This document shows, piece after piece, positions 47,316 through 60,122 of a DNA stretch of 64,000 nucleotides; the stretch's first letter is position 1, and each line of letters begins with the position of its first letter. A program made the translations under genes and the position numbers. The DNA comes from an uncultured Gammaproteobacteria bacterium (GTDB lineage: Bacteria > Patescibacteriota > Microgenomatia > CAYXHB01 > CAZYTL01), in contig CAZYTL010000001.1 in NCBI GenBank assembly GCA_964650355.1, positions 216,018 to 280,017 of the forward strand, read 5' to 3'. The notes below the pieces were generated by a model. It worked only from the letters and a program-made list of their open reading frames with translations, made no database searches and had not been told where the DNA came from.

Positions 47316-48320
47316 TCATGATTGATTATCAAACCGCCTTAAAAACAACACCTTGGTTAGTCCTGAGAATGTACCCAGAAGACCGCCTAATTGATTTAAC
47401 CTCCCTGTAGTTAAAAATTTATACCCGTAATAACCATTTTGAAGACAGAGATTAGTCGAAAACTTTAGCAATTGGTTCAGGCTTTTTATTTTAAAGAACC
47501 TGAAGTAGAAAATAATAAAATTTTGCATTCGGTGGTAAGCAGCAGGTCTGGCTTTTTCAACCTTACCTGTTTCCACGTTGTGTCTTAATTTCACCTGCGG
47601 GTTAAATATTAGTTTGTATCCCAAATTCTTAATTTTCATTGCAGAATCAGTTTCGTGATAGTCTCCCAGTCCTTCAGTAAAAATTTCATCAAAACCACCG
47701 ATTTGTTTCACTAATCTCGTTCGGGCAGACCAATTACATGCTTCTAAGTAATCCGCTTGCCGATTATGCTTTAGCTTTAAAGTTTCAGGATAATTAGAAC
47801 CTAAAGTAAATACCCCGCTGGACAAAAACTTTGAAGGCTCTTTAATTTTTCCCTCATAGAGAAAATCGAGGTAGACTCTACCAAATAATTTTTTTACCGG
47901 GTTGGTACTGTGTTGAATACCTTCTAAAAAATTGGTTAAATCCCGTGCCTGCATGCCTTTCTCACTGATGGTCGTTGGCCCAGTCACCCCTCCGATATTT
48001 TTATCTGATTTGAAAGTCTTAATTAAGTTCTTATACCAGTCTTTATCCAATACCACGTCATCGTCCAGCCGGACAAAAATTTCGTTCTCTGCTCTTTTCA
48101 AAGCCTCATTGGCTGCCCCGATAATCCCTTTCTTTTTTTGTATAAAATAATCAATTTTTAAATCCCTGAATCTGCTGAGCATTCGCCTTACCTGATCATC
48201 ATCCTTTATACCCACTAACAGAATTCGGAACCCCTTTTTTGACTGTTTATTTAAACTTTCTAAACATTGCTTTAGAGCATCAAACCTGTTTGAAGTGGGA
48301 ATGAAAATATCTGTATCCAT
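47316..48320 (-). CDS. glycosyltransferase family 2
   Basis: N-terminal GT-A fold pattern (FIPTSNRFDALKQCLESL). DxD-like VRLDDDVVLDKDW. Confidence 0.7.
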   Translation of the reverse strand: MDTDIFIPTSNRFDALKQCLESLNKQSKKGFRILLVGIKDDDQVRRMLSRFRDLKIDYFIQKKKGIIGAANEALKRAENEIFVRLDDDVVLDKDWYKNLIKTFKSDKNIGGVTGPTTISEKGMQARDLTNFLEGIQHSTNPVKKLFGRVYLDFLYEGKIKEPSKFLSSGVFTLGSNYPETLKLKHNRQADYLEACNWSARTRLVKQIGGFDEIFTEGLGDYHETDSAMKIKNLGYKLIFNPQVKLRHNVETGKVEKARPAAYHRMQNFIIFYFRFFKIKSLNQLLKFSTNLCLQNGYYGYKFLTTGRLNQLGGLLGTFSGLTKVLFLRRFDNQS

Positions 48321-48428
48321 AATTCCCCAATTTACATTAACTAATCAGCTAGACATTCAACTCACAACTACCCGAGTGCGAAAATTTTCCATCAGCGGGT
48401 AGGTTGCTCTCTTCTCTGAGTCCATATC

Positions 48429-49172
48429 TTAGGCCTTCTTCTTTAAACACAAAAAAATTGTGCCTCTGGCCAGTAAACCTGGGAAGAAATTAGTTAACTT
48501 ATACCAGATAGGATCAGGGATCAGAGTTAGAATTTTCCCTACCCATTCTAAACGAGAACCTTTCCCTGAAAAATTAATATAATATCGGTAATCTTTAATC
48601 GTCAAGTATTTACTCACAAAATCTCTTGCTTGCTTAATCGTGGGAAAATGTAAATGCTTATATAAGTCAAACGCATATTGGTCAATACCCATCCCTGTCA
48701 CGGCAAAGACCCGGTGGAAAATAGTATTTTCGTTGGGCAAAGAGATCAACGCGACCCCGTCTGTTTTTAATAAATTATTGATAGCTTGAATGTGTTTAGC
48801 CGGATCCAATAGATGTTCCAAAACTTCCGTGCAGATAATAATATCGAATTTTTCCCCTTTAACCTGAGATTCGATATCTTGAAAATTGAAATCCATCGTC
48901 TTCACCTTTATTCCCCGTTCTTTGGCCGCATCCATTCCGTCGTTATCGTAATCCAGAATCAGATAATTAATTTTCTGAGTCTTCGTTGGGAATGACTGTT
49001 TGATTAATTGAAACAGATCTCCGGTATAGCCGCCGATATCGAGCACGTCCACATGATCTGATGAGAGGATCTTGGGTTTAATTAAATCTAAATTTTGCCC
49101 ATACCTCATCCGCATGTATTTACTCGTAAACAAATCACCGTAATGATATTTAGCCTGGTAACCTTTAGTCAT
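48429..49172 (-). CDS. class I SAM-dependent methyltransferase
   Basis: VLDIGGYTGD motif I. IICTEVLEHLLDP post-II motif. Confidence 0.7.
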   Translation of the reverse strand: MTKGYQAKYHYGDLFTSKYMRMRYGQNLDLIKPKILSSDHVDVLDIGGYTGDLFQLIKQSFPTKTQKINYLILDYDNDGMDAAKERGIKVKTMDFNFQDIESQVKGEKFDIIICTEVLEHLLDPAKHIQAINNLLKTDGVALISLPNENTIFHRVFAVTGMGIDQYAFDLYKHLHFPTIKQARDFVSKYLTIKDYRYYINFSGKGSRLEWVGKILTLIPDPIWYKLTNFFPGLLARGTIFLCLKKKA

Positions 49173-49176
49173 AAAG

Positions 49177-49986
49177 TTATATTTTTTTACACAATACTAA
49201 TAAACCTGCTCCTTGATCATTATTAACGTTATCAGATACGCTTAATTTGGCGATTAATTCTTTATACTTTAAAAAGACTTTTTTTTCAGCCTCCTGATCA
49301 AATAATTTTTTCCAGCGCGCTTCCAGAGCCATTCTATCCCACCACATCAGGGCTTCTTTATCCAGGTAATAATGATATTTGATAATTTTAAGTTTTTTTG
49401 AACTCAGCAACTGCTTCCATTTTTGAATCGAATAAAGATGATAATGATTTAACTTCCGATTTCTGTAGTTAACGTACAGGTTTGATAAAAAGCCCAGTTT
49501 CCAGCTATCTAGCAGATTGCTCAAATATAAGTATTGGGAAAACTTATCGCTGGGCACAGTAAACAGAAAATAACCGTTAGGCTTTAATACTCTCCGCACT
49601 TCACTTAACACCTGGTTCAAGTCAGGGATGTGCTCTATGACACTGTTGCTAAACACAAAATTAACTGAATTTTGGGGAAGGGACATCTTTTCAGCCAATT
49701 CAATTAACACCTTCTTGTAGCGTTTTTTCTTAATTGCCACTTGTACGTCTCCAGCCTCATTATTATCTAAACCGTAAGTAAATTGTTGATCAAATAAAGT
49801 ACTGGCGATAAACCCATCACCGCAGCCTAAATCCAACGATGGCTGGGGAAAGTTAATTCGATGAGTACATTTATATATAGTATTTAGCTCTATGATTCTA
49901 AATAATTTGGACGCCGGATTTTGCTCCTCATCTAAATCATCCAGATCAATTTTATGGCTGTGCATCATATTACCCAATTCAAACAA
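49177..49986 (-). CDS. class I SAM-dependent methyltransferase
   Basis: LDLGCGDGF motif I. VFSNSVIEHIPD...LKPNGYFLF. Confidence 0.7.
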   Translation of the reverse strand: MFELGNMMHSHKIDLDDLDEEQNPASKLFRIIELNTIYKCTHRINFPQPSLDLGCGDGFIASTLFDQQFTYGLDNNEAGDVQVAIKKKRYKKVLIELAEKMSLPQNSVNFVFSNSVIEHIPDLNQVLSEVRRVLKPNGYFLFTVPSDKFSQYLYLSNLLDSWKLGFLSNLYVNYRNRKLNHYHLYSIQKWKQLLSSKKLKIIKYHYYLDKEALMWWDRMALEARWKKLFDQEAEKKVFLKYKELIAKLSVSDNVNNDQGAGLLVLCKKI

Positions 49987-50095
49987 AAACTATCAACGTC
50001 TAATTTATCTATCCTCCTGAGTAACCCCAGTTTGTTGTTAGCTATTCGAGCTCACGCCTTTAATTCTATGAATAATCCCTGACCACTGTCCAGCC

Positions 50096-51211
50096 CTAAA
50101 AACTCTTGGCATTGCCGATGTTAAGTTGAGTTTGGGCTTTACTTAAAAAATAACTCAAGGGTTTTTTAACCATCACCCGGTCAAATAACCAGTCATCATT
50201 TACCTTTCTTAATTTACTGACGGCTTGTCTTTTCCTGATGGTTGATCTGAGATGAACCACATTCCATAAAATGCCTTTATTGATCCACCAAAATTCCTGA
50301 TAATTTCCCTGTACCAACTTGTACCAAGCTAAGCCAGACCACAAGATTACCTGCCAAGTGAGAATCTTAATTAAATTCTTTGTTTGTAAATTTTTTAAAT
50401 GGGTTAATAAGTAATTTTTTGTTCCGTGAAATTTGGCTTGATAACTTTTTTTCTCCTGACCCAAACTCAAAGTGCTGGTCCCGAATTCATGATAAACCTT
50501 GGACTGAGGAACAAATCTCACCTGGTATCCTGCCAGCCAGCACCGCCAGCCCAAATCAGTTTCTTCCACGTAGATAAAATAATCACCATCAAAACCTCCA
50601 GCCTTATCAAATACTTTTCTGCTGATAAACATCCCGGCTGATTTAGCTGCCAAAATCTCTATTGGTTGGTCATACTGGCCATGATCGATTTCCCCGGCTT
50701 GACATCTTTGCACGAGGAAACCATTTTGTCCTAAATGCTCGCCCACATAGTCTATCAAAAACTGTTTCTTCTTAGTCCGTCCTTTCAAATAGGCTACCGC
50801 CTCCGCTTGCTTCGATACCAACAACTTACACTGAATCGCCCCTAAATTCTTATCTTTCTTAAATGCTTTAACCGCTTCATTGGCCCAATTCGGATCCACC
50901 ACCGTGTCATTATCCAAAAATCCCAGATATTGGCCTTGGGAACTTTTTACCCCTATATTCCGGGCCATGGCCGGTCCGTAATTTTTATCCAGTCCGATAC
51001 ATAAAAATTTTCCCTTCTGCTTTGCAGCCGCATATTTGTGATTTAAATACGCCACTGTCCCGTCAGTTGATCCATTATCCACCACCACTACTTCAACTGA
51101 CTTTGTCCGACTTTGGAGCACGGACTCCACACACTTATCCGCATAATTTTTGCCTTCATACGTAACAATGATCACCGAAACCAAAAACGATTTTTCCATT
51201 ATTTTCTCCAA
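50096..51211 (-). CDS. glycosyltransferase family 2
   Basis: VSVIIVTYEG...VVVVDNGSTDGT GT2 signature. DNDT(V) DxD variant. Confidence 0.8.
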   Translation of the reverse strand: MEKIMEKSFLVSVIIVTYEGKNYADKCVESVLQSRTKSVEVVVVDNGSTDGTVAYLNHKYAAAKQKGKFLCIGLDKNYGPAMARNIGVKSSQGQYLGFLDNDTVVDPNWANEAVKAFKKDKNLGAIQCKLLVSKQAEAVAYLKGRTKKKQFLIDYVGEHLGQNGFLVQRCQAGEIDHGQYDQPIEILAAKSAGMFISRKVFDKAGGFDGDYFIYVEETDLGWRCWLAGYQVRFVPQSKVYHEFGTSTLSLGQEKKSYQAKFHGTKNYLLTHLKNLQTKNLIKILTWQVILWSGLAWYKLVQGNYQEFWWINKGILWNVVHLRSTIRKRQAVSKLRKVNDDWLFDRVMVKKPLSYFLSKAQTQLNIGNAKSF

Positions 51212-51228
51212 TTTTCGCAGTCCCCAAG

Positions 51229-52170
51229 CTAGGTTTGCTCTTTCAGATATAAGATCGTCTTTTGAATCCCCTCCTTAATCGGAGTTAATCTATCAGGATA
51301 ATACTTTTTTAATAATCTAGTATCGGCTAATGTCTTTTCCAGATAGACTTTTGGTTTATTCACGTACACAGGACGCACCTTCTTAGGAAGTTGTTGATTT
51401 ACCAGCTTCACTATTTGGTTGAAAGATACTGCGGTTCCGGATCCCACATTAACCACCTTTTCCTTACAGTTCCAGGCCAATTGCAACATAATATTTATCA
51501 AGTCATCTATGAACACAAAATCTCTCTCTTGATTGCCATCTCCCCAGATTTCCGGACTTTTTCCCCTCATCATGTCTTTGATAAAAGCATAAAGCACGCT
51601 GGCAATCTTTCCCTTATGCTCTTCTCCTGGACCATATCCGGCAAAGATCCTTAAGCCGAGTGAGTTTACTTGATCACCATAAACTTCGGCAATATTTTCT
51701 AAAATTATTTTACATTGAGAATAAGCATTTACCTTACTGAAGTTAATTTTGGTCCGTTCATTTTGAGGCGGGGGAGTTTGAGCATACAAACTCCCGGTAG
51801 AGGGAAAAACCAACCGCACATTATTGGTTGCGCAAAACTTTATAGATTGTAAAAACCCTCTAATCGTAATTTGAGCGCAGCTGGAGAGATCTTGGTTGAA
51901 CAGAATCACAGAAGATGGGGCGGCGAAGTGAAAAAGAAAATCATACTTCACCTTTGGCAATTTTTTAAATGTAGCTTCTGATTGAACATCTCCGATAATC
52001 GTGTGCGCCTTGGGATGAATATTTTTCTGTTGAGCGCCAAAGGATAAATTGTCGATCACATACACCCTAGCCTGTCTGTTAACTAGCTCGCGTACCAAGT
52101 TCTGGCCGATAAAACCGGCTCCACCTGTCACAATGCAATTTTTTTTATAATAAGGATTTTGTTTAGCCAT
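51229..52170 (-). CDS. NAD-dependent epimerase/dehydratase (extended SDR)
   Basis: CIVTGGAGFIGQNLV Rossmann motif. YAQCK (YxxxK) catalytic pair. Confidence 0.8.
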   Translation of the reverse strand: MAKQNPYYKKNCIVTGGAGFIGQNLVRELVNRQARVYVIDNLSFGAQQKNIHPKAHTIIGDVQSEATFKKLPKVKYDFLFHFAAPSSVILFNQDLSSCAQITIRGFLQSIKFCATNNVRLVFPSTGSLYAQTPPPQNERTKINFSKVNAYSQCKIILENIAEVYGDQVNSLGLRIFAGYGPGEEHKGKIASVLYAFIKDMMRGKSPEIWGDGNQERDFVFIDDLINIMLQLAWNCKEKVVNVGSGTAVSFNQIVKLVNQQLPKKVRPVYVNKPKVYLEKTLADTRLLKKYYPDRLTPIKEGIQKTILYLKEQT

Positions 52171-53164
52171 CGGTCATCAAAGATTTAAATCTAAAAGAGA
52201 GCCATGTATAAGCGTAGATAGGTGTCACCATAAAAGTTAACGCCGGGTGTAAAAACCAAACCGGATCCCTAATAACTAAATATCCTCTGATGGACTGAAT
52301 TAAAGGCTCAATTATCGTCAGAGAAAACAGCATAAATTTTAATAACTTCAACTTATCCTTCTGGCTGTCAAACACATGATACCGTCTTTGCTCCTGATCT
52401 TTTAAATACACGTTCGCATAACGATTTCTTCTCTTTAAATAATTTCTTAACTCTTCACCTGTCTTATGCCAAATGTCGTTTTTTACGAAGGCAAACTGGT
52501 TATAGCCTAAATTTATCAGATCAACACAACCGTCAATGTGAAAAAATTTCAATGGTTCTTTGGAAACCAACTGGATAATTTTTGTCCTGATTACAAATCC
52601 GTTTGCCCCAATCGTGGGGATGTTGTTTTTATCAAACTTCACTAAATAATAATCACCTTTGTCTTGGGCTTTTGAATTCAAGGGCCAATCAGTTTCGAAA
52701 TAAGTAATTCTGTCTCGCTTGTTGAGATAATAGGGCAGAGGATCATTTACCCCGAATAGAGAAAAATAACGATTAAGTGGTTTATCGTCTCTGCGATACG
52801 TATAACGTAAGGTTTCGCTTGCTACCACCTTGGGGTTTTCCATTAACGGTCCTACCATTCTTTTCAACCAGTCCTTGGTAGGGATGACATTATCCGAGGG
52901 ATAATTAACCACCAGATCCGTTTTAACTGCGTTGTAACCGATGGCAGTAGCCGCCTCGGGGCGACCAGTATTTTCTTTGATTACCGAACAAAATTTAAAG
53001 CCTTTGGCAATTTTTAAGGTCTTGTCGGTTGATCCGCCATCAACGATTAAGAGTTTAATTTTATTTCGGGAATAATCCAATTTAGCAACACTCTCCAGAC
53101 ACTCTTTGAGTGTCCTTTCGCTATTAAAAGTGGGAGTCACAAACGTTACTGTTGGCCAATCCAT
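52163..53164 (-). CDS. glycosyltransferase family 2
   Basis: VTFVTPTFNSERTLKECLESV...LLIVDGGSTDKT. Confidence 0.75.
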   Translation of the reverse strand: MDWPTVTFVTPTFNSERTLKECLESVAKLDYSRNKIKLLIVDGGSTDKTLKIAKGFKFCSVIKENTGRPEAATAIGYNAVKTDLVVNYPSDNVIPTKDWLKRMVGPLMENPKVVASETLRYTYRRDDKPLNRYFSLFGVNDPLPYYLNKRDRITYFETDWPLNSKAQDKGDYYLVKFDKNNIPTIGANGFVIRTKIIQLVSKEPLKFFHIDGCVDLINLGYNQFAFVKNDIWHKTGEELRNYLKRRNRYANVYLKDQEQRRYHVFDSQKDKLKLLKFMLFSLTIIEPLIQSIRGYLVIRDPVWFLHPALTFMVTPIYAYTWLSFRFKSLMTDG

Positions 53165-53314
53165 ATACGATTATCTCCTGAGTTTATAGATAAATGTAAT
53201 AAAAAACAGATATTTCTATATTATAATAAATCACCAGTCGGCCTTAACCAACTTAGCAGTTTAATTAGCACAAAGCATACCATTATACATATGATACTCT
53301 CTATATCCTATCGA

Positions 53315-54055
53315 TCACCACTTAGTGATTTTACCTACCTTTTTCACAATTTTGTCCATGCTCTCTAATAAAGATTCTACTGATGGATCGATCGTCAAAT
53401 CTGGATTTTGGGGTACTTGATACGGGTTATTTTTGCTCAAATTACCTCCACGGACGTAAATCCAGTAGGGATCACAAATTTCAGCAATTTTATCTCTCGC
53501 ATCTTGAAACGGAGCAATTACTGAGACAAGTACATTATGCCCCTGATCACACAATACTTTGGCTAACCTGGCTACCCGCAAATTGTGTACTTCGCGATCT
53601 TTTTTACTAAATCCGGCTCCTAAGGAGATTGACTGACGCATTTCATCTCCGTCTAAGAGAATCCCATTTAACCGTTCCTTGAGCAACACGGCCAAAGAAG
53701 TTTTTCCCGCCCCAGTATTACCTGTAAACCAAATCACCCTTTTTTGTGAATTTCGGATCTTAGTTCCTGATATTTTTTCCATTTCCTCATTTAACCTGAT
53801 ATTGCGAATCGCATATCCCACTTTGCGACCATAACAGACTTCGGCCACATCCGGCACCACAATAATTTTTACTTTCTTGCCGTAAACCTTGCGAATCATC
53901 TGTTTTCGTTCTTCAACCGTGTAAGGATTCTCTTCAGAGATTACCGTATCTCGGATAGCAATCACCACCGGTTTACCCTCAGCCAAAACCTTATCAATCA
54001 TTAACTTGTGGCCTTTATGGAACGGTTGCCAACGACCAATAAATAAAGAATGCAT
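53315..54055 (-). CDS. fusion protein: minimal HxGH nucleotidyltransferase (NMNAT/TagD-like) N-domain plus APS-kinase-like P-loop kinase C-domain
   Basis: N-domain has FIGRWQPFHKGH (HxGH) and a C-terminal ISGTKIR motif. C-domain has the FTGNTGAGKTS P-loop and LDGDEMRQSISLGAGFSKKDREVHNLRVARLA, which matches the APS kinase LDGDxxRxxLxxxLGFSxxDRxxNxRR signature. Confidence 0.6.
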   Translation of the reverse strand: MHSLFIGRWQPFHKGHKLMIDKVLAEGKPVVIAIRDTVISEENPYTVEERKQMIRKVYGKKVKIIVVPDVAEVCYGRKVGYAIRNIRLNEEMEKISGTKIRNSQKRVIWFTGNTGAGKTSLAVLLKERLNGILLDGDEMRQSISLGAGFSKKDREVHNLRVARLAKVLCDQGHNVLVSVIAPFQDARDKIAEICDPYWIYVRGGNLSKNNPYQVPQNPDLTIDPSVESLLESMDKIVKKVGKITKW

Positions 54056-54201
54056 ATCTTAAAACTGTCAGTCCCAACATAAATTAAAATAATACAATCT
54101 TACTAACCAATCAACCATTGGACCAGACTCATTTTACTTACCCTCGTTCACTAATATAGTCATTAAGTGATATTCGGAAGCTAATACTTGCTGTCTACCA
54201 A

Positions 54202-56268
54202 CTAAATGCTACCCATCAATTGCCCGATTTCATCCACCAGCAACTCACTCAACTCCTCACCCAAAGCCCGGGGAGCATGCGTCCTGATCTCTCTCTGCAA
54301 ATTTTTCCAAATTTCTTTAGCGACTTGATTCTGTCCTCTTTCCTGCATCGACTCAGCCAAATTCGCCTGAACCAGCCAACCATTTACTAGTGACTCGGGT
54401 TTGACTAACCCCAAATCGCCAGCCGCCTGTAAATCTCCAACCAACTGATCGAAAGTAGCCACGCTCAAATCTATGATCTCATCCAATGAATCGCTTAACT
54501 CTAATGTCAAAACCTCATTCTCTCCTTCACCGATCAGTCGGTTTATTAGCAATTGGTGTTGATTTCCTTCTTCATCGAACAACCGCACATCTATGGTTTT
54601 TAAGCCTGATTCACCTGGTAACACATTCAATTTCACGACATAAACCATTCCGTCGTCTGGTTTGGGCAACCCGTACACAAACTCGGCGGGAGAACCAGGC
54701 AAATCCGGATCTATATCGTCCTCCAAAGACTCCACGAAACTGAAAGCCCCTGCCAAGTCGTCTGCGGTGCCGTCTACTTCCAACTCCAATCCTGGTTCGC
54801 CAAACATCCACAAATAACTCAAGTCTGTATTACTGGGTACAAATCTACCTAACCTTGACCTCCGATATACACTTTCTGGATACAACTCATTCAACGAATG
54901 TGGCGGCTCCTCCTCCGCCAACTGGTTCGGATCATTGATCAGAATATCATCCGTGCCGTCAAACCCTCCGGTGACCACAAAATGAGTGTTACCGCTTGAT
55001 TTCCTTACTAACCGCAAAATTTCTGGTACTTCATCGTCTATATCTGCAGTCACCTGACCAATTCCGGTATAAGCAGGATAACTAAACTCAAATGTTGTCC
55101 CTGAACCTGAAGGAGCGCTCTCACTGGCATCTTTGGCGTACTTGGTGATTGCGCTCCAAATCACTCCACCCCAGTTCGTATAGCCATGGTTATTAATCAA
55201 CCAGGAGTTTAACGTCGCTGGGTTGGTTGGAAAAGAATCCACATCTCCATTAGGAAAATAAGCTACCCCTCGATCCACTCCATGGTACATCAATACCATG
55301 GCAGCTGAAGTCAAAGCACATCCCCAACGATCAATTCCTGTTCCTTGGCTGCTCCAATTAGTTGCAAAATCATACTCCACTGGTTTTCCTAAAATTTCAT
55401 TCCAATTTTCGTCCAGCTGGCTAAACCACGGAACCGCCAAATCAATCTTCTTTCCGGTATTGTAAGCTGCCTGCACCTCGCACTCGCTCAATGCCCGATT
55501 ATAAATCTTCACCTCGTCGACGACGCCGTTAAAGTGTTGAAATGAATCATTTGGCGACCCATTTCTTAATGCTCCAATTAATAAATCGATGTCAGATGTA
55601 CTTCCGGGAATTCCTACGAAGACACCACTTGCTTCTAAATTTCCATCAATGTATAAACGTTGTGTATTATTCTCACGTTCATAAAGAAGATGATGGAAGT
55701 AAGTGTCGTTGATGACTTTTGAACCAAAAATTAAAGCTCCTGAACCATCAGCTCTTTCAAATCCAGATAATATTTTATCTTTTCCTTCAATGTAATTACT
55801 TGAAGAAATTCCAATTATGTAAACAGTTGGCTCATCAATCGTGCCAAAATAACCAGCTCCTTTAGCTATTATTATTTCTATATTATCTCTAAATGTTGAT
55901 CTTTTGGCCCACAATTCAACAGTGACATCACCGGTAATATTTAAGTTATCTGATGCGGGAATTTTTACTTCGTCATTTATCCCATCAAGATACAATCCGC
56001 TATTAATTTTACCGTCAACATAAGCTGGTCCACCAATTAAAGATCCATTATTTTCACCGATCAGATCTTTTGCGATTCCATTCTCGGTTCCATCAAATGA
56101 CCACCAACTGACCAATCCATCATTCGAAACAGAACAACCTTGAGCTTCTACTTGGTTAACGAACTTCAAGCCAAGATAACTAGAACTACCAATCAAGTAT
56201 AATGATGATATCACTACGGCAATTATCAAAAGCCGTATTCTGAATTTTGAAGCAAAGGAATACAACAT
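54202..56268 (-). CDS. secreted protein: concanavalin-A-like lectin (LamG) domain plus C39-like papain-fold cysteine peptidase domain
   Basis: Signal peptide. WWSFDG...GLYLDGINDEVKIP...VELWAKR LamG pattern. DRWGCALTSAAMVLMYHG is a Peptidase_C39-like catalytic Cys context. Confidence 0.5.
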   Translation of the reverse strand: MLYSFASKFRIRLLIIAVVISSLYLIGSSSYLGLKFVNQVEAQGCSVSNDGLVSWWSFDGTENGIAKDLIGENNGSLIGGPAYVDGKINSGLYLDGINDEVKIPASDNLNITGDVTVELWAKRSTFRDNIEIIIAKGAGYFGTIDEPTVYIIGISSSNYIEGKDKILSGFERADGSGALIFGSKVINDTYFHHLLYERENNTQRLYIDGNLEASGVFVGIPGSTSDIDLLIGALRNGSPNDSFQHFNGVVDEVKIYNRALSECEVQAAYNTGKKIDLAVPWFSQLDENWNEILGKPVEYDFATNWSSQGTGIDRWGCALTSAAMVLMYHGVDRGVAYFPNGDVDSFPTNPATLNSWLINNHGYTNWGGVIWSAITKYAKDASESAPSGSGTTFEFSYPAYTGIGQVTADIDDEVPEILRLVRKSSGNTHFVVTGGFDGTDDILINDPNQLAEEEPPHSLNELYPESVYRRSRLGRFVPSNTDLSYLWMFGEPGLELEVDGTADDLAGAFSFVESLEDDIDPDLPGSPAEFVYGLPKPDDGMVYVVKLNVLPGESGLKTIDVRLFDEEGNQHQLLINRLIGEGENEVLTLELSDSLDEIIDLSVATFDQLVGDLQAAGDLGLVKPESLVNGWLVQANLAESMQERGQNQVAKEIWKNLQREIRTHAPRALGEELSELLVDEIGQLMGSI

Positions 56269-56312
56269 AAAATCAGTATAGACAAATTTTTTTTACTGTT
56301 ACAATAGCAATT

Positions 56313-57185
56313 ATGTCATTTGGTTATTTCCCGGACTTCCAAAACAAATCAAAACTTAAGGACTGGTATCTTAAAATATTCGGTTATCCTTATCCTCCTC
56401 GGCGGAATGAAGCAATTATGGTATTTGATTTACTCGATCCAAGGCCGGAAGAAAAAATATTAGATATCGGGTGCGGGGAAGGAATATTTACGAATGAACT
56501 TGCTAAAAGAGGGTACGATGTTACGGGAATTGATATTTCTGATCACGATTTAAAAGTAGCTAGAAAAAGGGCAAAACAAATGAATTTAAAAGTCGAATAC
56601 ATTAAAATGGATGCTCAAAAAATGAATTTCAGAAACAACTCATTTGATAAAATTTACTCCATCTCGACCATCGAACACATTCCAGATGATCAAGCGGTTT
56701 TTAATGAATGCTTCCGAGTATTAAAACCAGACGGGGCGCTTGTAATTTCCGTTCCCAGCGAAAAGAACTTTAAACTCATCAAACAATTAATTAAATTACC
56801 CCACTGGATAAAAGTCAAACTTTTCAATAATCTGATTGTCAACTCAAAGAGCTACGGGAAATACTGCCGTGATCTTGATAAGAAATTTAATCACTACCAT
56901 AGATATAAAATCAAAGCTCTTTTCCGTCGAGTTACTCAAGCAGGGCTGAATATCCAAACCGCACAATACAATGTCAATCTAATAAGTAAACTGCCTCAGG
57001 TAGTCATACATACGCTCAAACTGTTTGAGTGGAACAAAGATCAAAAATCTGGGTATCAATACGAACACAAAAATGAAGGATATCTTGCTATAATTTTCCC
57101 CATCTTTTATTTATTTTACATAATTGACCGCCTTTTATTTTCACGTCTAACCGGAATGGCGATTATAATCAAAGCTAATAAGTAG
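56313..57185 (+). CDS. class I SAM-dependent methyltransferase
   Basis: ILDIGCGEGIFT motif I. VTGIDIS motif II. LKPDGALVIS. Confidence 0.7.
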   Translation: MSFGYFPDFQNKSKLKDWYLKIFGYPYPPRRNEAIMVFDLLDPRPEEKILDIGCGEGIFTNELAKRGYDVTGIDISDHDLKVARKRAKQMNLKVEYIKMDAQKMNFRNNSFDKIYSISTIEHIPDDQAVFNECFRVLKPDGALVISVPSEKNFKLIKQLIKLPHWIKVKLFNNLIVNSKSYGKYCRDLDKKFNHYHRYKIKALFRRVTQAGLNIQTAQYNVNLISKLPQVVIHTLKLFEWNKDQKSGYQYEHKNEGYLAIIFPIFYLFYIIDRLLFSRLTGMAIIIKANK

Positions 57186-57429
57186 ATTAATAAGTGATTT
57201 ACTAAAAATTACATTATTGTATACACGCTACTATCCACGAACGACCCAATCTTATACGTCAACGATTCACTCAACACCATCCTTAAAGATTCAGGAACGT
57301 ACGCCTTAATCCTATGTCGTAAATCTCTTTAGCAAGTCTAACCCGGAACCCGGCGTCTCTTTCATCGAGTTAGAGGTAAACTGGCCTGAACCATAAACGG
57401 ACTGATTAAATTCAAACTATTAGCAAATT

Positions 57430-58416
57430 ATGATTAAATACAATCGCATATTAATTACCGGAGCAACAGGATTTATCGGCCACCATGTTATAACTCACGC
57501 CATAAGAGAAAGATGGGCGTCGCATATTAGGCTGTTCATAAAAAAAGGGACAAAATTAGATTTTAAATCAATCCTGGTCGAGAAAAAATATTATCAGACT
57601 CAATGGGCGAACAAGTCAGTAGACAAAGCACTTAAAGATATCGACTGCGTGATCAATTGTGTCGGAAAACTAGGAAGATGGGGAAACACATATGGAGATT
57701 ACTACCAAGCGAATGTTGTAACCACTCAACTACTCGTAAACAACCTTTCGAAACAAATAAAGAAAGTTATACACATAAGTTCACCATCAGTTTTAGGACC
57801 CATCTCAGATCCTCGTAAACCAGGAACTGAAACTGACATCATTAATCCTCACAATAATTATGAAATAACTAAGGCTCTGTCGGAACTAATTATTCTCAGT
57901 CAATGTCCAAGCCCTTGGATAATAATTCGGCCGGAATTCGTTTACGGGCCAAAAGACAAGCAAGTATTTAGATTGTACAAGGCCATAATGAGAAATCGAT
58001 TTATAATCATTGGTAACGGAAATACGTTCCTACACCCCACATACATTGACGATGTCGTAAAGGCGATTAGACTGACTATCACAAAGCCTGTATCACATCA
58101 AATATTTCATATAGCAGGACCACGACCTTTGACCGTTAACCAAATAGTCCATGATATAAGGCAAGTCTTTGGTGGACGTCAACCAGACCATGTTCCAATA
58201 AACATAGCAAGAAAAATAGCAAGTTTATTTGAATTTTGTTCTAAATTTGGAATACAACCGATGTTAACTAATTCTCAAGTCGATTTTTTTACTCAGCACC
58301 GCTTATTCTCTACCAAGAAAGCACAAATTTTACTGAAATGGGAACCAACAACCAACTATCGAACCGGCTTATTAATATCTCGTCGCTGGTATCAAAAGCA
58401 TAAATGGCTAGATTAA
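57430..58416 (+). CDS. NAD(P)-dependent epimerase/dehydratase-family SDR
   Basis: ILITGATGFIGHHV Rossmann motif. YEITK (YxxxK). Confidence 0.75.
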   Translation: MIKYNRILITGATGFIGHHVITHAIRERWASHIRLFIKKGTKLDFKSILVEKKYYQTQWANKSVDKALKDIDCVINCVGKLGRWGNTYGDYYQANVVTTQLLVNNLSKQIKKVIHISSPSVLGPISDPRKPGTETDIINPHNNYEITKALSELIILSQCPSPWIIIRPEFVYGPKDKQVFRLYKAIMRNRFIIIGNGNTFLHPTYIDDVVKAIRLTITKPVSHQIFHIAGPRPLTVNQIVHDIRQVFGGRQPDHVPINIARKIASLFEFCSKFGIQPMLTNSQVDFFTQHRLFSTKKAQILLKWEPTTNYRTGLLISRRWYQKHKWLD

Positions 58417-58420
58417 ATAT

Positions 58421-59326
58421 ATGACCTTAGTAAAGACAAATTTTAAATTAGACTTTCTGGGAATTGGCATGCCAAAATGCGGTACATCATGGATCTCTTC
58501 GAATCTAACGAACCATCCTCAAGTATATATTCCTCCTGAAAAGGAAATAAATTTCTTTAACGAGCAATATTGGAAAGAAGATATTCCTGTAGCACGTAAC
58601 TATCAACGTGGTATAGGGTGGTACGAAAGTTTCTTTAAAAAGGCGCCAGTGGGTAAATTAAAAGGCGAGTTTAGCGTGACCTACATGGTTGATAAACCAG
58701 CAGTTTATCGAATCAGACGACATTTCCCTGACGTAAAAATTCTTATCGCCTTAAGAAATCCCCCTGACATGGTGCAATCACTCTATTGGTGGTTTAAAAC
58801 CACTTCTTCTTACAAATATCATACCGATAACTTTGACCAAGCAGTCCAAGAAAAAGTAGAGAGCGATGGGCGTTTTTGGATGGGTTACTATTCAAGATTT
58901 TTGGAGACAATATATCATACATTCCCATATCAAAATATTCATATAGTTATTCTCGATGATATAAAAAACAATCCTTCTACTACGTTTAAGGAGATATGTA
59001 ACTTCCTCCAGATAGAAAACCAAGTTTCAACTAAACATTTAGCCAGAAAAGTTAATTCTGCGATAACGGTGAAATCGAAAACGATAAAAAACTTGGCTGT
59101 CATATGGATGAATCTACTTAAAGATCTAAAATTAAAAAAAATATATTCGTTTATAAAAACCAGTAGAACTATTTCTTCCATTTATCGTCAGATTAATATG
59201 AAGTCATATAAATATCCCCAAATGAATAAAAAAACAAGAGTTAAACTAAACAGTTGGTATCAAGAAGATATAATTAAAGTAGGAAAAATCATAAACCGTG
59301 ATTTAAGTGCATGGTATAACCAATAG
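58421..59326 (+). CDS. PAPS-dependent sulfotransferase
   Basis: PKCGTSW (5'-phosphosulfate-binding, compare PKSGTTW) and ALRNPPDMVQSLY (3'-phosphate-binding RxPxD..S.Y) motifs. Confidence 0.7.
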   Translation: MTLVKTNFKLDFLGIGMPKCGTSWISSNLTNHPQVYIPPEKEINFFNEQYWKEDIPVARNYQRGIGWYESFFKKAPVGKLKGEFSVTYMVDKPAVYRIRRHFPDVKILIALRNPPDMVQSLYWWFKTTSSYKYHTDNFDQAVQEKVESDGRFWMGYYSRFLETIYHTFPYQNIHIVILDDIKNNPSTTFKEICNFLQIENQVSTKHLARKVNSAITVKSKTIKNLAVIWMNLLKDLKLKKIYSFIKTSRTISSIYRQINMKSYKYPQMNKKTRVKLNSWYQEDIIKVGKIINRDLSAWYNQ

Positions 59327-59363
59327 GTAAATATACAAATAAAAAACGTTAGGAGAATTTATA

Positions 59364-60122
59364 ATGCGTTATATGGATACTAACTATCAGAAAGAAGAAA
59401 GAACCTTTGACAATTATTCAAATGATTGGATCAACTACCGAAAAACACCTCGATACCAGTACTTAAGGAAATATATTTTAAAACTAATCAAAGATTTTGA
59501 TAAACCAGAAAACAGAATATTAGAACTTGGATGCGGTATATCTCCATTTCTCGGAGAGTTAAAAAAAAGCACTAACTATGGACTTGATATTTCACAGACC
59601 TTAATAGACAAAAACAAGAGTCAAACTGCCACGTTTATAAAAGGAAACGTGGTAAACTGTTCTTCATATTTTAAAGTAAAATTTGACCTAATATTCATGG
59701 TTGGCTTATTGCATCATATAAATGGAAAAGATCACCCGAAGGTTCTAAAACAAGTTAAAAAACTATTAAAATCTCAAGGGTATTTTATTCTGGTTGAACC
59801 CAACATGATATCTATCACAGGAATATATTATCTTCTAAGAATAGTTCTTACCCAATTATTTAATGGGAATACAATTCGGAATTTAATTGGTTTTTATAGC
59901 GAAGATGAGAAATATATCTTTCCCAATAGAGTTTTAAATCAACTGAGAATATTAAATTTCGAGACAGTTAAGGCGTATTCTATTATGCCATTAAGACTGC
60001 CACCAGTTAAATCCTTGCAAAAAATAAATATTCAACCAGTCAATGAATTACTATATCCAGTGGTCTCAAAATTACTATATGGTGGTACAAGTCTAGTTAT
60101 CGTCTGCAAGAAAAAACAATAA
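59364..60122 (+). CDS. class I SAM-dependent methyltransferase
   Basis: ILELGCGISPF motif I. LIFMVGLLHHING. Confidence 0.65.
   Translation: MRYMDTNYQKEERTFDNYSNDWINYRKTPRYQYLRKYILKLIKDFDKPENRILELGCGISPFLGELKKSTNYGLDISQTLIDKNKSQTATFIKGNVVNCSSYFKVKFDLIFMVGLLHHINGKDHPKVLKQVKKLLKSQGYFILVEPNMISITGIYYLLRIVLTQLFNGNTIRNLIGFYSEDEKYIFPNRVLNQLRILNFETVKAYSIMPLRLPPVKSLQKINIQPVNELLYPVVSKLLYGGTSLVIVCKKKQ

What the first reader, a model, noticed from the sequence alone, without database searches (positions are those of the whole stretch)
47316..60122. Glycan decoration cluster with unusually many methyltransferases plus a sulfotransferase
Within 13 kb there are three GT2 enzymes (47316, 50096, 52163), two SDR epimerase/dehydratases (51229, 57430), four class I SAM methyltransferases (48429, 49177, 56313, 59364), the NTase-APS-kinase fusion, a sulfotransferase and a secreted LamG-C39 protein. 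The gene content predicts a heavily O-methylated and sulfated glycan or glycoconjugate. Sulfated surface glycans are rare in bacteria and, as far as I know, not characterised in small-genome lineages.
Basis: inference. Interest (0 to 1): 0.5.

Follow-up and report, generated by a model that had tools for sequence, protein, structure and literature searches.

The report
Glycan-tailoring island with mini PAPS synthase
The genes are real and form a cell-surface sugar-decoration island in a small-genome (CPR-type) bacterium; its most interesting part is a 246-residue fusion protein that probably makes the activated sulfate donor PAPS, using a tiny and so far undescribed sulfate-activating domain that is also common in phages.

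Summary

- **Sulfotransferase (58421-59326).** It keeps the PAPS-binding Lys, the Arg/Ser 3'-phosphate motif and the catalytic Glu of heparan-sulfate-type carbohydrate sulfotransferases. Its relatives in WS6, WWE3 and Nanoarchaeota sit in glycan clusters.
- **Methyltransferases.** None of the four matches any RNA or protein methyltransferase model. Their substrates cannot be assigned, so "heavily O-methylated" is unproven.
- **The 246-aa fusion (53315-54055).** This is the key component. It joins a ~100-aa NMNAT-like nucleotidyltransferase to an APS-kinase-like domain that lacks the lid.
 - Across 1.84 billion representative proteins, the mini domain appears either alone or joined to a partner. 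The partner is APS kinase, in either order, in nearly every case.
 - In 75 of 80 phage loci it is fused or adjacent to an APS kinase, often directly after a sulfotransferase.
 - No canonical ATP sulfurylase is present in the window or in those loci.
- **Best reading.** This is a self-contained sulfation module (sulfate → APS → PAPS → acceptor) inside a glycan-tailoring island. The mini domain would act as a non-canonical ATP sulfurylase; that step is inferred, not shown.

The cluster type is known. The PAPS module looks new.

The parts
53744..54055 (-). Mini nucleotidyltransferase domain (residues 1-104 of the fusion): GRWQPFHKGH ... YGRKVGY ... ISGTKIR. Candidate non-canonical ATP sulfurylase.
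   Evidence: Pfam CTP_transf_like 1.4e-9, matching only profile positions 1-64 of 133. The closest solved sequences are archaeal NMNATs, over the first ~70 positions only. In the CPR family G7, R8, H13, H16, R35, R77, G80, S96 and R101 are invariant. The domain is fused or adjacent to APS kinase across databases.
53315..53743 (-). APS-kinase-like P-loop kinase domain (residues 105-246) lacking the mobile lid. Probable APS 3'-kinase that makes PAPS.
   Evidence: Pfam APS_kinase 2.7e-22, covering profile positions 3-97 of 152. About 30-35% identical to solved APS kinases, with a gap where the RDPKGLY...FTGI lid lies. The DREVHN motif resembles the M. thermolithotrophicus APS kinase 8a8h. Foldseek TM-score (normalised to the target) is 0.6-0.8 to APS kinase structures, and the top hits are bifunctional ATP sulfurylase-APS kinases. 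The lid deletion is conserved in all 33 aligned CPR homologues.
58421..59326 (+). PAPS-dependent sulfotransferase of the carbohydrate (heparan-sulfate 3-OST/NST-like) type; cytoplasmic.
   Evidence: Sulfotransfer_1 1.7e-14 and Sulfotransfer_3 4.8e-14. PDB 3rnl 2e-20 and HS 3-OST-1 4e-9, with aligned PKxGT, KExxFF and RxPxxxxxS motifs. K19, K41-E42, R112 and S120 are conserved in 32 homologues. No TM segment.
57430..58416 (+). Extended SDR (epimerase / 3-beta-HSD-like) ending 4 bp upstream of the sulfotransferase.
   Evidence: Epimerase 2.1e-25 and 3Beta_HSD 6.1e-21. Best NCBIfam matches are OleD and HpnA-like, far below their cut-offs.
56313..57185 (+). Class I SAM methyltransferase MT3 with a C-terminal hydrophobic segment. 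First gene of the + strand sub-cluster.
   Evidence: Methyltransf_11 1e-29. TM segment at residues 258-276. Paralogue of MT2, 33% identity. Best solved relatives are phosphoethanolamine N-methyltransferases, SAM core only.
59364..60122 (+). Class I SAM methyltransferase MT4.
   Evidence: Methyltransf_23 1.1e-13. GC3 of 0.27 is the lowest in the window.
54202..56268 (-). Membrane-anchored or secreted LamG + C39-like cysteine peptidase protein. First gene of the long - strand array.
   Evidence: Laminin_G_3 2.6e-20 and Peptidase_C39_2 3.9e-9. N-terminal hydrophobic segment. Its link to the glycan pathway rests on position alone.
52163..53164 (-). GT2 glycosyltransferase (GT2c).
   Evidence: Glycos_transf_2 1.7e-18.
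51229..52170 (-). Extended SDR sugar-nucleotide epimerase/dehydratase. Closest to ADP-heptose 6-epimerase but below its cut-off.
   Evidence: Epimerase 6e-44. TIGR02197 scores 163.7 bits against a cut-off of 274.6.
50096..51211 (-). GT2 glycosyltransferase (GT2b) with a Glyco_trans_2_3 C-terminal part.
   Evidence: Glycos_transf_2 1.2e-26 and Glyco_trans_2_3 1.2e-13.
49177..49986 (-). Class I SAM methyltransferase MT2.
   Evidence: Methyltransf_11 2.2e-17.
48429..49172 (-). Class I SAM methyltransferase MT1 (weak NodS-like match).
   Evidence: Methyltransf_23 1.7e-16 and NodS 5.5e-7.
47316..48320 (-). GT2 glycosyltransferase (GT2a).
   Evidence: Glycos_transf_2 7.5e-18.
37086..47287 (-). Upstream extension of the island on the same strand, with 14-53 bp gaps or overlaps. 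It holds six polytopic membrane proteins, including a tandemly duplicated pair of modules (803 aa + 341 aa; 816 aa + 358 aa). They are probably YfhO-like GT-C glycosyltransferases and their partners.
   Evidence: 6-10 predicted TM segments each and no Pfam hit. The 803-aa and 816-aa proteins are 40% identical, and the 341-aa and 358-aa proteins are 27% identical. The 816-aa protein resembles the window's own YfhO-family protein (E 1.7e-7).
60125..63385 (-). Downstream low-GC block that shares composition with the sulfotransferase sub-cluster. It holds two proteins with no family match (448 and 245 aa) and a type I phosphodiesterase / nucleotide pyrophosphatase (62207-63385).
   Evidence: Phosphodiest 9.5e-20. 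GC3 is 0.30-0.31, against 0.46-0.60 in the housekeeping part of the window. A Phosphodiest gene also lies near the sulfotransferase-fusion pair on a phage-like contig, but the two are not close homologues.

Best explanation
Window 47316-60122 is the core of a larger envelope-glycan tailoring island (about 37-63 kb) of a CPR/Patescibacteria-type bacterium. It carries its own sulfation module.

**Shown**
- There are three GT2 enzymes, two sugar-nucleotide-type SDRs, four class I methyltransferases and one intact carbohydrate-type PAPS-dependent sulfotransferase. All are cytoplasmic.
- The genes lie in two divergent arrays only 44 bp apart.
- The - strand array runs on without a break into six polytopic, partly YfhO-like membrane proteins and a sortase.

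**Inferred mechanism**
1. The 246-aa fusion acts as a minimal PAPS synthase. Its ~100-aa NMNAT-like HxGH nucleotidyltransferase domain adenylylates sulfate (ATP + sulfate -> APS + PPi).
2. The fused lid-less APS-kinase domain immediately phosphorylates APS to PAPS, pulling the unfavourable first step.
3. The sulfotransferase then sulfates a sugar hydroxyl on a nucleotide- or lipid-linked intermediate built by the GT2s and SDRs, and the methyltransferases add methyl groups.
4. The product is exported and attached outside the membrane by the GT-C-like proteins, possibly to wall polymers or to the neighbouring sortase-anchored Ser-rich proteins.

The sulfurylase activity of the mini domain, the acceptor, the methylation chemistry and the final carrier are all inferred.
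For: - **Gene content.** It is confirmed.
- **Sulfotransferase.** The motifs are intact and conserved. Its homologues are embedded in glycan clusters with GTs, methyltransferases and Wzx flippases in WS6, Nanoarchaeota and WWE3.
- **Link between the fusion and sulfation.**
  - In WWE3 the 70%-identical fusion is divergently adjacent to a cluster of methyltransferase, SDR, GT2, GT1, Methyltransf_21, GT1, two sulfotransferases, an epimerase and Wzx.
  - In Parcubacteria-type contigs a sulfotransferase is 20 bp upstream on the same strand.
  - On a phage-like contig the sulfotransferase ends 2 bp before the fusion.
  - Among 78 metagenomic loci with CPR-type fusions, a sulfotransferase-like ORF was found in 18, and 15 of those lie within 1.2 kb. 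These figures come from narrow HMMs.
- **Link between the mini domain and APS kinase.**
  - Of its 150 best representative clusters, 28 carry it N-terminal to a ≥110-aa partner, 49 carry it C-terminal to one, and 60 are stand-alone.
  - 69 of the 150 carry Pfam APS_kinase, many with full-length canonical scores up to 7e-60.
  - All arrangements are seen in Omnitrophota, Planctomycetota and Deltaproteobacteria.
  - In 80 IMG/VR loci, 13 are fused and 62 adjacent to an APS kinase. 32 have a sulfotransferase within 1.5 kb (Pfam Sulfotransfer_3 1.3e-20).
  - Another member is fused to a DHHA1 (PAP-phosphatase-type) domain.
- **No canonical sulfurylase.** No Sat/CysD/CysN/CysQ Pfam hit occurs among the window ORFs scanned. 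No Sat or CysD motif occurs in the window or the 80 phage loci.
- **Structure.** The top Foldseek hits of the AF2 model are bifunctional ATP sulfurylase-APS kinases, aligned over both domains in the same order.
- **Sequence logic (my reading of the sequence).** Relative to archaeal NMNAT, the mini domain lacks the NMN-binding insertion and the C-terminal helical subdomain. It has instead an invariant GR(x)VG element (R77). This fits a small anionic substrate.
Against: - No biochemical data exist for any member.
- By sequence the mini domain is closest to NMNAT and PPAT, not to ATP sulfurylase. It lacks the GRDHAG motif. Only 5 of 150 members give weak PF01747 matches.
- The kinase lacks the lid that carries APS-stacking residues in canonical APS kinases. 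It scores below the NCBIfam APS kinase cut-off (81 against 138.7 bits).
- The AF2 model is only moderate (pLDDT 79, pTM 0.59) and is poor exactly at residues 72-97 of the mini domain.
- Many fusion loci show no sulfotransferase within 10 kb, and some sit among housekeeping genes.
- Only 64 kb of a 295-kb contig was visible, so a canonical sulfurylase or sulfate transporter elsewhere in the genome is not excluded.
- Inside 47-60 kb there is no flippase, polymerase or initiating phosphoglycosyltransferase. The nearest Wzx is at 16290-17807.
- The substrates of the methyltransferases, SDRs and sulfotransferase are unassigned.
- The sulfotransferase sub-cluster has a much lower GC3 (0.27-0.35) than the rest. 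It may be a recent import that is not integrated with the - strand genes.
Confidence: 0.55

Rival explanations
1. The fusion is only an APS kinase with an accessory domain. The mini NTase domain is regulatory, structural, or makes some other adenylylated compound. APS comes from a canonical ATP sulfurylase elsewhere in the genome or is scavenged. The island still sulfates a glycan.
For: The kinase half is clearly of the APS kinase family. The mini domain shows no solid sequence match to ATP sulfurylase. Fungal ATP sulfurylases show that such fusions can contain non-catalytic domains (1i2d and 1m8p among the Foldseek hits). Only 64 kb of the genome was seen.
Against: The HxGH and ISxT catalytic motifs and several arginines are invariant across hundreds of sequences, which argues for catalysis. 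Phage modules consist of only sulfotransferase + kinase + mini NTase, with no sulfurylase motif nearby. Stand-alone mini domains exist as separate genes next to APS kinase.
Confidence: 0.2
2. The fusion is a NadR-like NAD salvage enzyme (an NMN adenylyltransferase plus a small P-loop kinase such as a nicotinamide riboside kinase). It would be housekeeping in CPR and a counter-defence function in phages, unrelated to the sulfotransferase, which would then depend on another PAPS source.
For: The best sequence relatives of the mini domain are archaeal NMNAT, NadM and NadR. NadR is a known NMNAT + kinase fusion. The family is 60-80% identical across CPR lineages and sometimes lies among housekeeping genes. 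In Xylella phage Salvo the fusion sits next to a NADAR-domain gene.
Against: The kinase matches APS_kinase in 69 of 150 representatives, often full length and canonical, but matches the NadR-type AAA_28 family in only 4. The mini domain lacks the NMN-binding insertion and C-terminal subdomain of NMNAT: it matches only the first ~70 positions and scores 39.9 bits against a cut-off of 181 for TIGR01527. The repeated immediate adjacency to sulfotransferases and a fusion to a DHHA1 domain have no explanation under this reading.
Confidence: 0.1
3. The acceptor is not a glycan. The + strand sub-cluster (MT3, 3-beta-HSD/OleD/HpnA-like SDR, sulfotransferase, MT4) plus the low-GC downstream genes modifies a lipid, a phospho-head group or a small molecule. 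Examples would be a sulfolipid, or phosphoethanolamine converted to phosphocholine. It merely lies beside a glycosylation operon.
For: The best NCBIfam matches of SDR2 are lipid-type reductases and HpnA, well below their cut-offs. The best solved relatives of MT3 and MT4 are phosphoethanolamine N-methyltransferases. The sub-cluster has a distinct, lower GC3 and is on the opposite strand. A phosphodiesterase-family gene lies downstream.
Against: The closest characterised relatives of the sulfotransferase are carbohydrate sulfotransferases. Its homologues in four other lineages are embedded in glycan clusters beside Wzx flippases. The methyltransferase and SDR matches cover only cofactor-binding cores and are far below the family cut-offs.
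Confidence: 0.15

Closest known systems
Rhizobial Nod-factor tailoring genes (NodC GT2, NodS methyltransferase, NodH sulfotransferase, NodPQ dedicated ATP sulfurylase/APS kinase); comparison from established knowledge
   Same: The logic is the same: a GT2-built saccharide is tailored by a SAM methyltransferase and a PAPS-dependent sulfotransferase, and the cluster carries its own PAPS-synthesising genes. MT1 gives a weak NodS match and the GT2s give weak NodC matches.
   Different: NodPQ are canonical CysD/CysN-CysC homologues. Here the sulfurylase role would fall to a ~100-aa NMNAT-like domain. No NCBIfam Nod model reaches its cut-off. This island has four methyltransferases, GT-C-like membrane proteins and a sortase, and no acyltransferase or deacetylase.
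Bifunctional PAPS synthases: Aquifex aeolicus ATP sulfurylase-APS kinase (PDB 2gks), Thiobacillus 3cr8, fungal ATP sulfurylase (1i2d), human PAPSS1/2
   Same: The order is the same: an N-terminal HUP-fold nucleotidyltransferase followed by a C-terminal APS-kinase-fold domain. These are the top Foldseek hits, aligned over both domains. The proposed two-step chemistry is the same.
   Different: The N-domain is ~100 aa rather than ~350-400 aa. It has no PUA-like domain and no QxRNP/GRDHAG motifs, and the window protein gives no PF01747 hit. The kinase lid is deleted. The whole protein is 246 aa against 520-630 aa.
Archaeal NMN adenylyltransferase (MJ0541, PDB 1f9a) and NadR (NMNAT + ribosylnicotinamide kinase)
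   Same: It shares the GRxQPxHxGH and ISGTxIR motifs, and these are its best sequence matches. NadR is likewise an NTase + P-loop kinase fusion.
   Different: Only the first ~70 positions align. The NMN-binding insertion and C-terminal subdomain are absent. The kinase partner belongs to the APS kinase family, not AAA_28. The family is associated with sulfotransferases.
Heparan sulfate 3-O-sulfotransferase / N-sulfotransferase family and bacterial sulfotransferase PDB 3rnl
   Same: It shares the 5'-PSB lysine, the KExxFF catalytic Glu, the 3'-PB RxPxxxxxS motif and the overall length.
   Different: It is about 20-25% identical. His92 and Asp95 of 3-OST-1 are Asn here. The acceptor is unknown. 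The protein is cytoplasmic and bacterial.
Bacterial sulfated polysaccharide clusters, e.g. synechan xss of Synechocystis (PMC8205485) and sulfated capsules of Vibrio and Cobetia (PMC11641403, PMC11766843)
   Same: They also have sulfotransferases encoded inside polysaccharide biosynthesis clusters.
   Different: Those are Wzx/Wzy or ABC-type clusters in large-genome bacteria that have canonical sulfate activation. Here no flippase, polymerase or initiating transferase lies within the island, and PAPS supply is non-canonical.
CsbB/YfhO and GtrABC-type three-component extracytoplasmic glycosylation
   Same: Soluble or peripheral GT2 enzymes lie next to large polytopic YfhO-like membrane proteins.
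   Different: Only a weak similarity of the 816-aa protein to a YfhO-family paralogue was found (E 1.7e-7). There is no Pfam hit for the six membrane proteins and no GtrA-like flippase was identified.

Membership tests
PAPS-dependent sulfotransferase (Pfam Sulfotransfer_1 / Sulfotransfer_3) | Domain score above the Pfam gathering threshold | tested here: met
   54.3 bits (cut-off 22) and 53.6 bits (cut-off 27).
PAPS-dependent sulfotransferase (Pfam Sulfotransfer_1 / Sulfotransfer_3) | 5'-phosphosulfate-binding loop with catalytic Lys (PKxGT[ST]) | tested here: met
   PKCGTS at residues 18-23. The Lys/Arg, Gly and Thr/Ser positions are conserved in 32 homologues.
PAPS-dependent sulfotransferase (Pfam Sulfotransfer_1 / Sulfotransfer_3) | 3'-phosphate-binding Arg and Ser (RxPxxxxxS) | tested here: met
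   RNPPDMVQS. R112 is conserved in 31/32 and S120 in 32/32. It aligns to LRDPSERVLS of 3-OST-1.
PAPS-dependent sulfotransferase (Pfam Sulfotransfer_1 / Sulfotransfer_3) | Catalytic base (Glu in the HS 3-OST/NST type, His in the cytosolic type) | tested here: met
   K41-E42 is invariant in 32/32 and aligns to Glu90 of 3-OST-1. The neighbouring His92 and Asp95 equivalents are Asn.
PAPS-dependent sulfotransferase (Pfam Sulfotransfer_1 / Sulfotransfer_3) | Sulfotransfer activity and acceptor identity | not testable with these tools
   Needs an enzyme assay.
Adenylyl-sulfate (APS) kinase, CysC (PF01583, TIGR00455) | P-loop, LDGD and DRxxN/ISP-type motifs | tested here: met
   GNTGAGKTS, LDGDEMR, DREVHNLR and IAP align to solved APS kinases and are invariant in the family. 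The HN variant is shared with 8a8h.
Adenylyl-sulfate (APS) kinase, CysC (PF01583, TIGR00455) | Mobile lid (RDxKGLY...FTGI) and full-length domain | tested here: not met
   About 25 residues are missing. The Pfam match covers only profile positions 3-97 of 152, the alignment has a gap there, and the deletion is conserved.
Adenylyl-sulfate (APS) kinase, CysC (PF01583, TIGR00455) | Curated score cut-off | tested here: inconclusive
   The Pfam gathering score is met (79.9 against 21.1). The NCBIfam TIGR00455 cut-off is not met (81.2 against 138.7).
ATP sulfurylase (Sat, PF01747) | QxRNPxHxxH and GRDHAG motifs; PF01747 match | tested here: not met
   There is no PF01747 hit for the window protein and no such motifs. 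A profile of the mini domain finds no ATP sulfurylase among its 60 best PDB sequence matches. Only 5 of 150 relatives give weak PF01747 hits. It is therefore not a member; the claim is only that it may work like one.
ATP sulfurylase (CysD/CysN type) | PP-loop SGGKDS ATP pyrophosphatase plus GTPase subunit | tested here: not met
   No motif or Pfam hit anywhere in the window.
NMN adenylyltransferase, archaeal type (TIGR01527), and NadR | HxGH and ISxTxxR motifs | tested here: met
   GRWQPFHKGH and ISGTKIR.
NMN adenylyltransferase, archaeal type (TIGR01527), and NadR | Full ~170-aa fold with NMN-binding elements; curated cut-off; for NadR, an AAA_28 kinase partner | tested here: not met
   39.9 bits against a cut-off of 181.2. 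Only positions 3-70 align to NMNATs. AAA_28 is found in 4 of 150 relatives, against APS_kinase in 69.
ADP-heptose pathway (HldD epimerase + HldE kinase/adenylyltransferase) | HldD equivalog score; ribokinase-type HldE kinase | tested here: not met
   SDR 51229-52170 scores 163.7 bits against a cut-off of 274.6 for TIGR02197. The kinase of the fusion has the APS-kinase fold, not the ribokinase fold.
Wzx/Wzy-dependent polysaccharide cluster | Flippase, polymerase and initiating phosphoglycosyltransferase within the cluster | tested here: not met
   No Polysacc_synt, Wzy or PGT Pfam hit in 28-64 kb. The only Wzx is at 16290-17807. The unannotated membrane proteins could hide analogues.
GT2 glycosyltransferases | PF00535 above the gathering score | tested here: met
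   65.5, 94.1 and 67.6 bits against a cut-off of 23.3. The donor and acceptor are not assignable.
Sugar O-methyltransferases | A specific family signature or a characterised close homologue | tested here: inconclusive
   Only generic class I SAM-binding matches were found. No RNA or protein methyltransferase model matched, whereas the window's rRNA-type methyltransferase is recognised.

The most novel reading that the evidence does not exclude
The ~100-residue NMNAT-like domain is a third, minimal class of ATP sulfurylase. Together with a lid-less APS kinase it forms the smallest known PAPS synthase (246 aa). As a two- or three-gene module (sulfotransferase, APS kinase, mini NTase) it is widespread in CPR bacteria and in hundreds of phage genomes. 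It would let organisms, and phages whose hosts lack sulfate assimilation, sulfate their surface glycans or other targets.
Probability: 0.5. Interest if true: 0.85.

Novelty: new variant of a known kind. Interest (0 to 1): 0.62.

Why it matters
- **A new enzyme class.** If the mini domain really adenylylates sulfate, sulfate activation would gain a third enzyme class beside Sat and CysDN. That chemistry was thought to be fully catalogued.
- **An explanation for sulfation without assimilation genes.** It would explain how reduced-genome bacteria and phages can carry sulfotransferases without any recognised sulfate-assimilation genes.
- **A practical use.** A 246-aa one-polypeptide PAPS generator would also be useful for enzymatic sulfation.
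- **CPR biology.** The island predicts sulfated, and probably methylated, surface glycoconjugates. These would be charged surface structures on organisms that live attached to hosts, and nothing of the kind has been characterised in these lineages (no relevant paper found).
- **Phage biology.** The conserved module of sulfotransferase, APS kinase and mini NTase is an unrecognised auxiliary function.

Tried and rejected
- **ADP-heptose reading.** I considered the NTase-kinase fusion as an HldE analogue feeding the HldD-like SDR. I rejected it because the kinase has the APS-kinase fold, the SDR is below the HldD cut-off, and the fusion family tracks sulfotransferases.
- **PPAT + dephospho-CoA kinase (CoA synthase) reading.** PPAT gives only weak matches (2e-5) and CoaE matches 2 of 150 relatives. 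It explains neither canonical APS kinase partners nor sulfotransferase adjacency.
- **Promoter and terminator scan of 46.5-62.5 kb.** Counts equal the shuffled expectation, so it is uninformative.
- **tRNA and Rfam scans.** Nothing found.
- **Pfam at E up to 5 on the six membrane proteins and the 448-aa and 245-aa proteins.** No usable hits.
- **Organism name by exact cluster look-up.** No names are held. The window's contig is 295 kb in NCBI, but only a 20-kb Logan copy was retrievable.
- **Literature searches.** I searched for CPR sulfotransferases, CPR ATP sulfurylase, NTase-APS kinase fusions and phage sulfotransferase/APS kinase. Nothing relevant turned up.
- **Motif regexes for sulfotransferases.** They proved too narrow and were replaced by HMMs built here. 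Those HMMs still under-detect other sulfotransferase families, so the co-occurrence figures are lower bounds.
- **Homology between the two Phosphodiest genes.** The window's gene and the one on the phage-like contig are not close homologues.

Full report
**1. Observation**

- **GT2:** 47316, 50096 and 52163.
- **Extended SDRs:** 51229 and 57430.
- **Class I SAM methyltransferases:** 48429, 49177, 56313 and 59364.
- **Fusion:** a 246-aa CTP_transf_like + APS_kinase protein at 53315-54055.
- **Sulfotransferase:** a Sulfotransfer_1/3 protein at 58421-59326.
- **Peptidase:** a 688-aa Laminin_G_3 + Peptidase_C39_2 protein with an N-terminal hydrophobic anchor at 54202-56268.

NCBIfam gives no equivalog-level assignment for any of them. 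The genes form two divergent arrays separated by 44 bp (56269-56312).

**2. Setting**

The organism is a CPR/Patescibacteria-type bacterium. The fusion's near homologues come from MAGs labelled Woesebacteria, WWE3, Saccharibacteria and various Parcubacteria. The window also carries tandem T4SS-type pilins and many orphan membrane proteins.

The island is larger than the reported interval.
- **Upstream.** The - strand array continues without gaps over 53 bp through six polytopic membrane proteins (37086-47287, 6-10 TM segments each, no Pfam hit). These include a duplicated pair of modules: the 803-aa and 816-aa proteins are 40% identical, and the 341-aa and 358-aa proteins are 27% identical. 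The 816-aa protein resembles the window's own YfhO-family protein (E 1.7e-7).
- **Further upstream on the same strand.** A sortase follows (36436-37044), then repeat-rich secreted proteins. One has a Ser-rich stalk and an LPLTG sorting signal.
- **Downstream.** 60125-63385 shares the very low GC3 (0.27-0.35) of the sulfotransferase sub-cluster, against 0.46-0.60 in the housekeeping part. It contains a type I phosphodiesterase-family gene.
- **Elsewhere in the window.** A second envelope-glycosylation region lies at 16-26 kb, with a Wzx flippase, a PIG-V-like protein and a YfhO protein.
- **What is missing.** No flippase, polymerase or initiating transferase was recognised within 28-64 kb.

**3. 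The sulfotransferase**

- Its closest solved relatives are a bacterial sulfotransferase (3rnl, 2e-20) and heparan sulfate 3-O- and N-sulfotransferases.
- The PKCGTS loop, the KEINFF motif (E42 aligned to catalytic Glu90 of 3-OST-1) and RNPPDMVQS are present. K19, K41-E42, R112 and S120 are invariant or nearly so in its 32 detectable homologues.
- Those homologues are few and distant, at most 39% identical.
- Where context is available they sit inside glycan clusters next to Wzx flippases, GT4/GT2 enzymes and methyltransferases. This holds for WS6, a Nanoarchaeota MAG (which also has a CysQ-like + APS kinase fusion and STT3), another bacterial contig, and WWE3.

A carbohydrate acceptor is therefore the best-supported reading, by homology and context only.

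**4. The methyltransferases**

- All four give only generic class I matches. MT2 and MT3 are paralogues.
- The best solved relatives of MT3 and MT4 are phosphoethanolamine N-methyltransferases, over the SAM core only.
- None matches an RNA or protein methyltransferase model. By contrast the window's MTS/RsmC-type enzyme at 8152-8736 is recognised at 2.4e-32.

**5. The fusion: the crux**

No canonical ATP sulfurylase, CysQ, sulfate permease or pyrophosphatase appears among the ORFs of the 64-kb window that were scanned (motif scan).

*The kinase half.* It is about 30-35% identical to solved APS kinases, with the P-loop, LDGD, DRxxHN and IAP motifs. The ~25-residue lid (RDPKGLY...FTGI) is missing, and this deletion is conserved in all 33 aligned CPR homologues.

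*The N-terminal ~100 residues.* They carry GRWQPFHKGH and ISGTKIR, as archaeal NMNAT does, but only the first ~70 positions align to NMNAT, NadM, PPAT or NadR. The rest contains an invariant YGRxVGY element.

*Structure.* The AF2 model is moderate (pLDDT 79, pTM 0.59, low at residues 72-97). Its best Foldseek hits are the bifunctional ATP sulfurylase-APS kinases of Aquifex and Thiobacillus and the fungal ATP sulfurylase. These align across both domains in the same order.

**6. Family-wide evidence**

- **Size and conservation.** The CPR-type fusion has at least 814 homologues at 60-80% identity and at least 576 hits in JGI metagenomes.
- **All arrangements occur.** They are: NTase + lid-less kinase (CPR); NTase + canonical kinase (Omnitrophota); kinase + NTase (Planctomycetota); separate overlapping genes (Deltaproteobacteria); and stand-alone NTase (Kaiserbacteria).
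- **Search of 1.84 billion representatives with the mini domain alone.** It found 437 clusters at E ≤ 1e-10. Of the best 150:
  - 28 carry it N-terminal to a ≥110-aa partner, 49 carry it C-terminal to one, and 60 are stand-alone.
  - 69 carry Pfam APS_kinase, up to 7e-60, against 4 AAA_28 and 2 CoaE.
  - Other partners are a DHHA1 domain (the PAP-phosphatase type) and a Methyltransf_11 domain.
- **IMG/VR.** The mini domain occurs at least 455 times. In the best 80 loci it is fused (13) or adjacent on the same strand (62) to an APS kinase, and most of those kinases lack the lid.
  - The commonest neighbour family (30 members, directly upstream) is a Sulfotransfer_3 protein (1.3e-20).
  - A sulfotransferase lies within 1.5 kb in 32 loci.
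  - No Sat or CysD motif occurs in these loci.
- **Cellular loci.** A sulfotransferase is adjacent or near in WWE3, Parcubacteria-type contigs, a Saccharibacteria-labelled contig and an Omnitrophota contig, a phage-like contig, and 18 of 78 metagenomic loci, 15 of them within 1.2 kb. These counts use narrow home-made HMMs and are lower bounds.
- **Contexts without a sulfotransferase.** Several contexts show none within 10 kb.

**7. Interpretation**

Fusion in both orders, operonic pairing, and the recurring three-gene unit of sulfotransferase, APS kinase and mini NTase tie the mini domain to PAPS metabolism. The absence of any canonical sulfurylase points the same way. The one step of that pathway with no assigned enzyme is sulfate adenylylation.

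HxGH nucleotidyltransferases catalyse exactly this type of reaction, and Sat itself belongs to that fold class. Loss of the NMN-binding parts of NMNAT fits a small anionic substrate. Fusion to the kinase would pull the unfavourable equilibrium.

This is inference. The mini domain fails the membership test for ATP sulfurylase, so it would be an analogue within the same superfamily, not a member.

The rivals are listed with their odds in the rival explanations:
- an accessory, non-sulfurylase domain;
- NadR-like NAD salvage;
- a non-glycan acceptor.

**8. Comparison and novelty**

The island works like rhizobial Nod-factor tailoring (GT2 + methyltransferase + sulfotransferase + dedicated PAPS synthesis) and like known bacterial sulfated-polysaccharide clusters. 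As a cluster it is a new member of a known kind, in a lineage where none has been characterised.

The PAPS module is a new variant and possibly a new enzyme class. I found no paper describing it. In Xylella, Xanthomonas and Stenotrophomonas phage records the gene under the match is labelled only "kinase", "adenylylsulfate kinase" or "hypothetical protein".

**9. Verdict**

- **Observation:** confirmed.
- **Interpretation:** partly supported. Sulfation capacity is credible. Methylation chemistry and the acceptor are open. The rarity claim is overstated.

Noticed in passing
IMG/VR loci L038-L117 (e.g. L105 6093-7631; L064 8683-10336): A conserved phage module: Sulfotransfer_3 gene, then a short lid-less APS-kinase-like gene, then the mini NTase gene, often overlapping. 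It commonly sits with an SDR epimerase, a GT9-like protein (judged by eye only; Pfam gave no GT hit) and 2OG-Fe(II) oxygenases. The mini NTase occurs at least 455 times in IMG/VR.
   Followed up: partly
L035 9172-9999; viral neighbour group 3 (e.g. L064 10309-10776): DUF2061 (a small predicted membrane domain) recurs beside the module. It is a separate downstream gene in 13 phage loci and is fused to the C-terminus of the sulfotransferase on a phage-like contig. Its role is unknown.
   Followed up: no
P0158 (432 aa) and P0200 (329 aa): There are two unusual partners of the mini NTase. One is a DHHA1 domain of the DHH phosphoesterase type (some members of that family hydrolyse the sulfotransferase by-product PAP). 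The other is an N-terminal Methyltransf_11 domain.
   Followed up: partly
L118 (Xylella phage Salvo NC_042345.1, record 15167-15913, gp32): Cultured Xylella, Xanthomonas and Stenotrophomonas siphophages encode an APS-kinase-like + mini NTase fusion annotated only as "kinase". Its neighbours include a NADAR-domain protein, a weak Sulfotransfer_4-like gp29 (E 6e-4), MazG and a gene annotated as cysteine dioxygenase.
   Followed up: partly
L033 7465-10753 / L034 672-3960: A Parcubacteria-type operon: SAM_HAT_N (SAM hydroxide adenosyltransferase / halogenase-like), radical SAM, a divergent sulfotransferase, and the fusion. This suggests a sulfated product unrelated to glycans in some CPR.
   Followed up: no
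L007 13424-14737 (Nanoarchaeota MAG): An Inositol_P (CysQ-like PAP phosphatase) + APS kinase fusion lies 2.5 kb from a homologous sulfotransferase, a Wzx flippase and an STT3 oligosaccharyltransferase. DPANN archaea may therefore also sulfate N-glycans.
   Followed up: no
window 40294-47287 (-): A two-gene module is tandemly duplicated: a ~810-aa protein with 9-10 TM segments plus a ~350-aa protein with 6 TM segments. The large proteins are 40% identical and the small ones 27%. The large proteins share a GHNWDFTF motif and have a C-terminal TM anchor. None has a Pfam family.
   Followed up: partly
window 29450-37044 (-): A sortase lies next to three repeat-rich secreted paralogues. The 412-aa protein has a Ser/Gly-rich stalk followed by LPLTG, a hydrophobic segment and a basic tail. 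The 428-aa protein has LPDSG. They are candidate carriers of the glycan.
   Followed up: partly
window 56313-63385: A block of seven genes (MT3, SDR2, sulfotransferase, MT4, two unknowns, Phosphodiest) has GC3 of 0.27-0.35. The - strand cluster has about 0.40 and the housekeeping genes 0.46-0.60. This suggests separate, probably horizontal, acquisition.
   Followed up: partly
window 16290-26213 (+): A second envelope-glycosylation region holds a Wzx-type flippase, a 1064-aa orphan secreted protein, a PIG-V-like GT-C, a YfhO-family GT-C and a 530-aa orphan protein.
   Followed up: no
window 14431-16238 (+): Four tandem small genes with the T4SS_pilin domain lie directly upstream of the Wzx flippase.
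   Followed up: no
window 6884-7486 and 9789-10277 (+): Two paralogous aminoglycoside-2''-adenylyltransferase-like / DUF2204 nucleotidyltransferases flank an rRNA-type methyltransferase and a ROK kinase.
   Followed up: no
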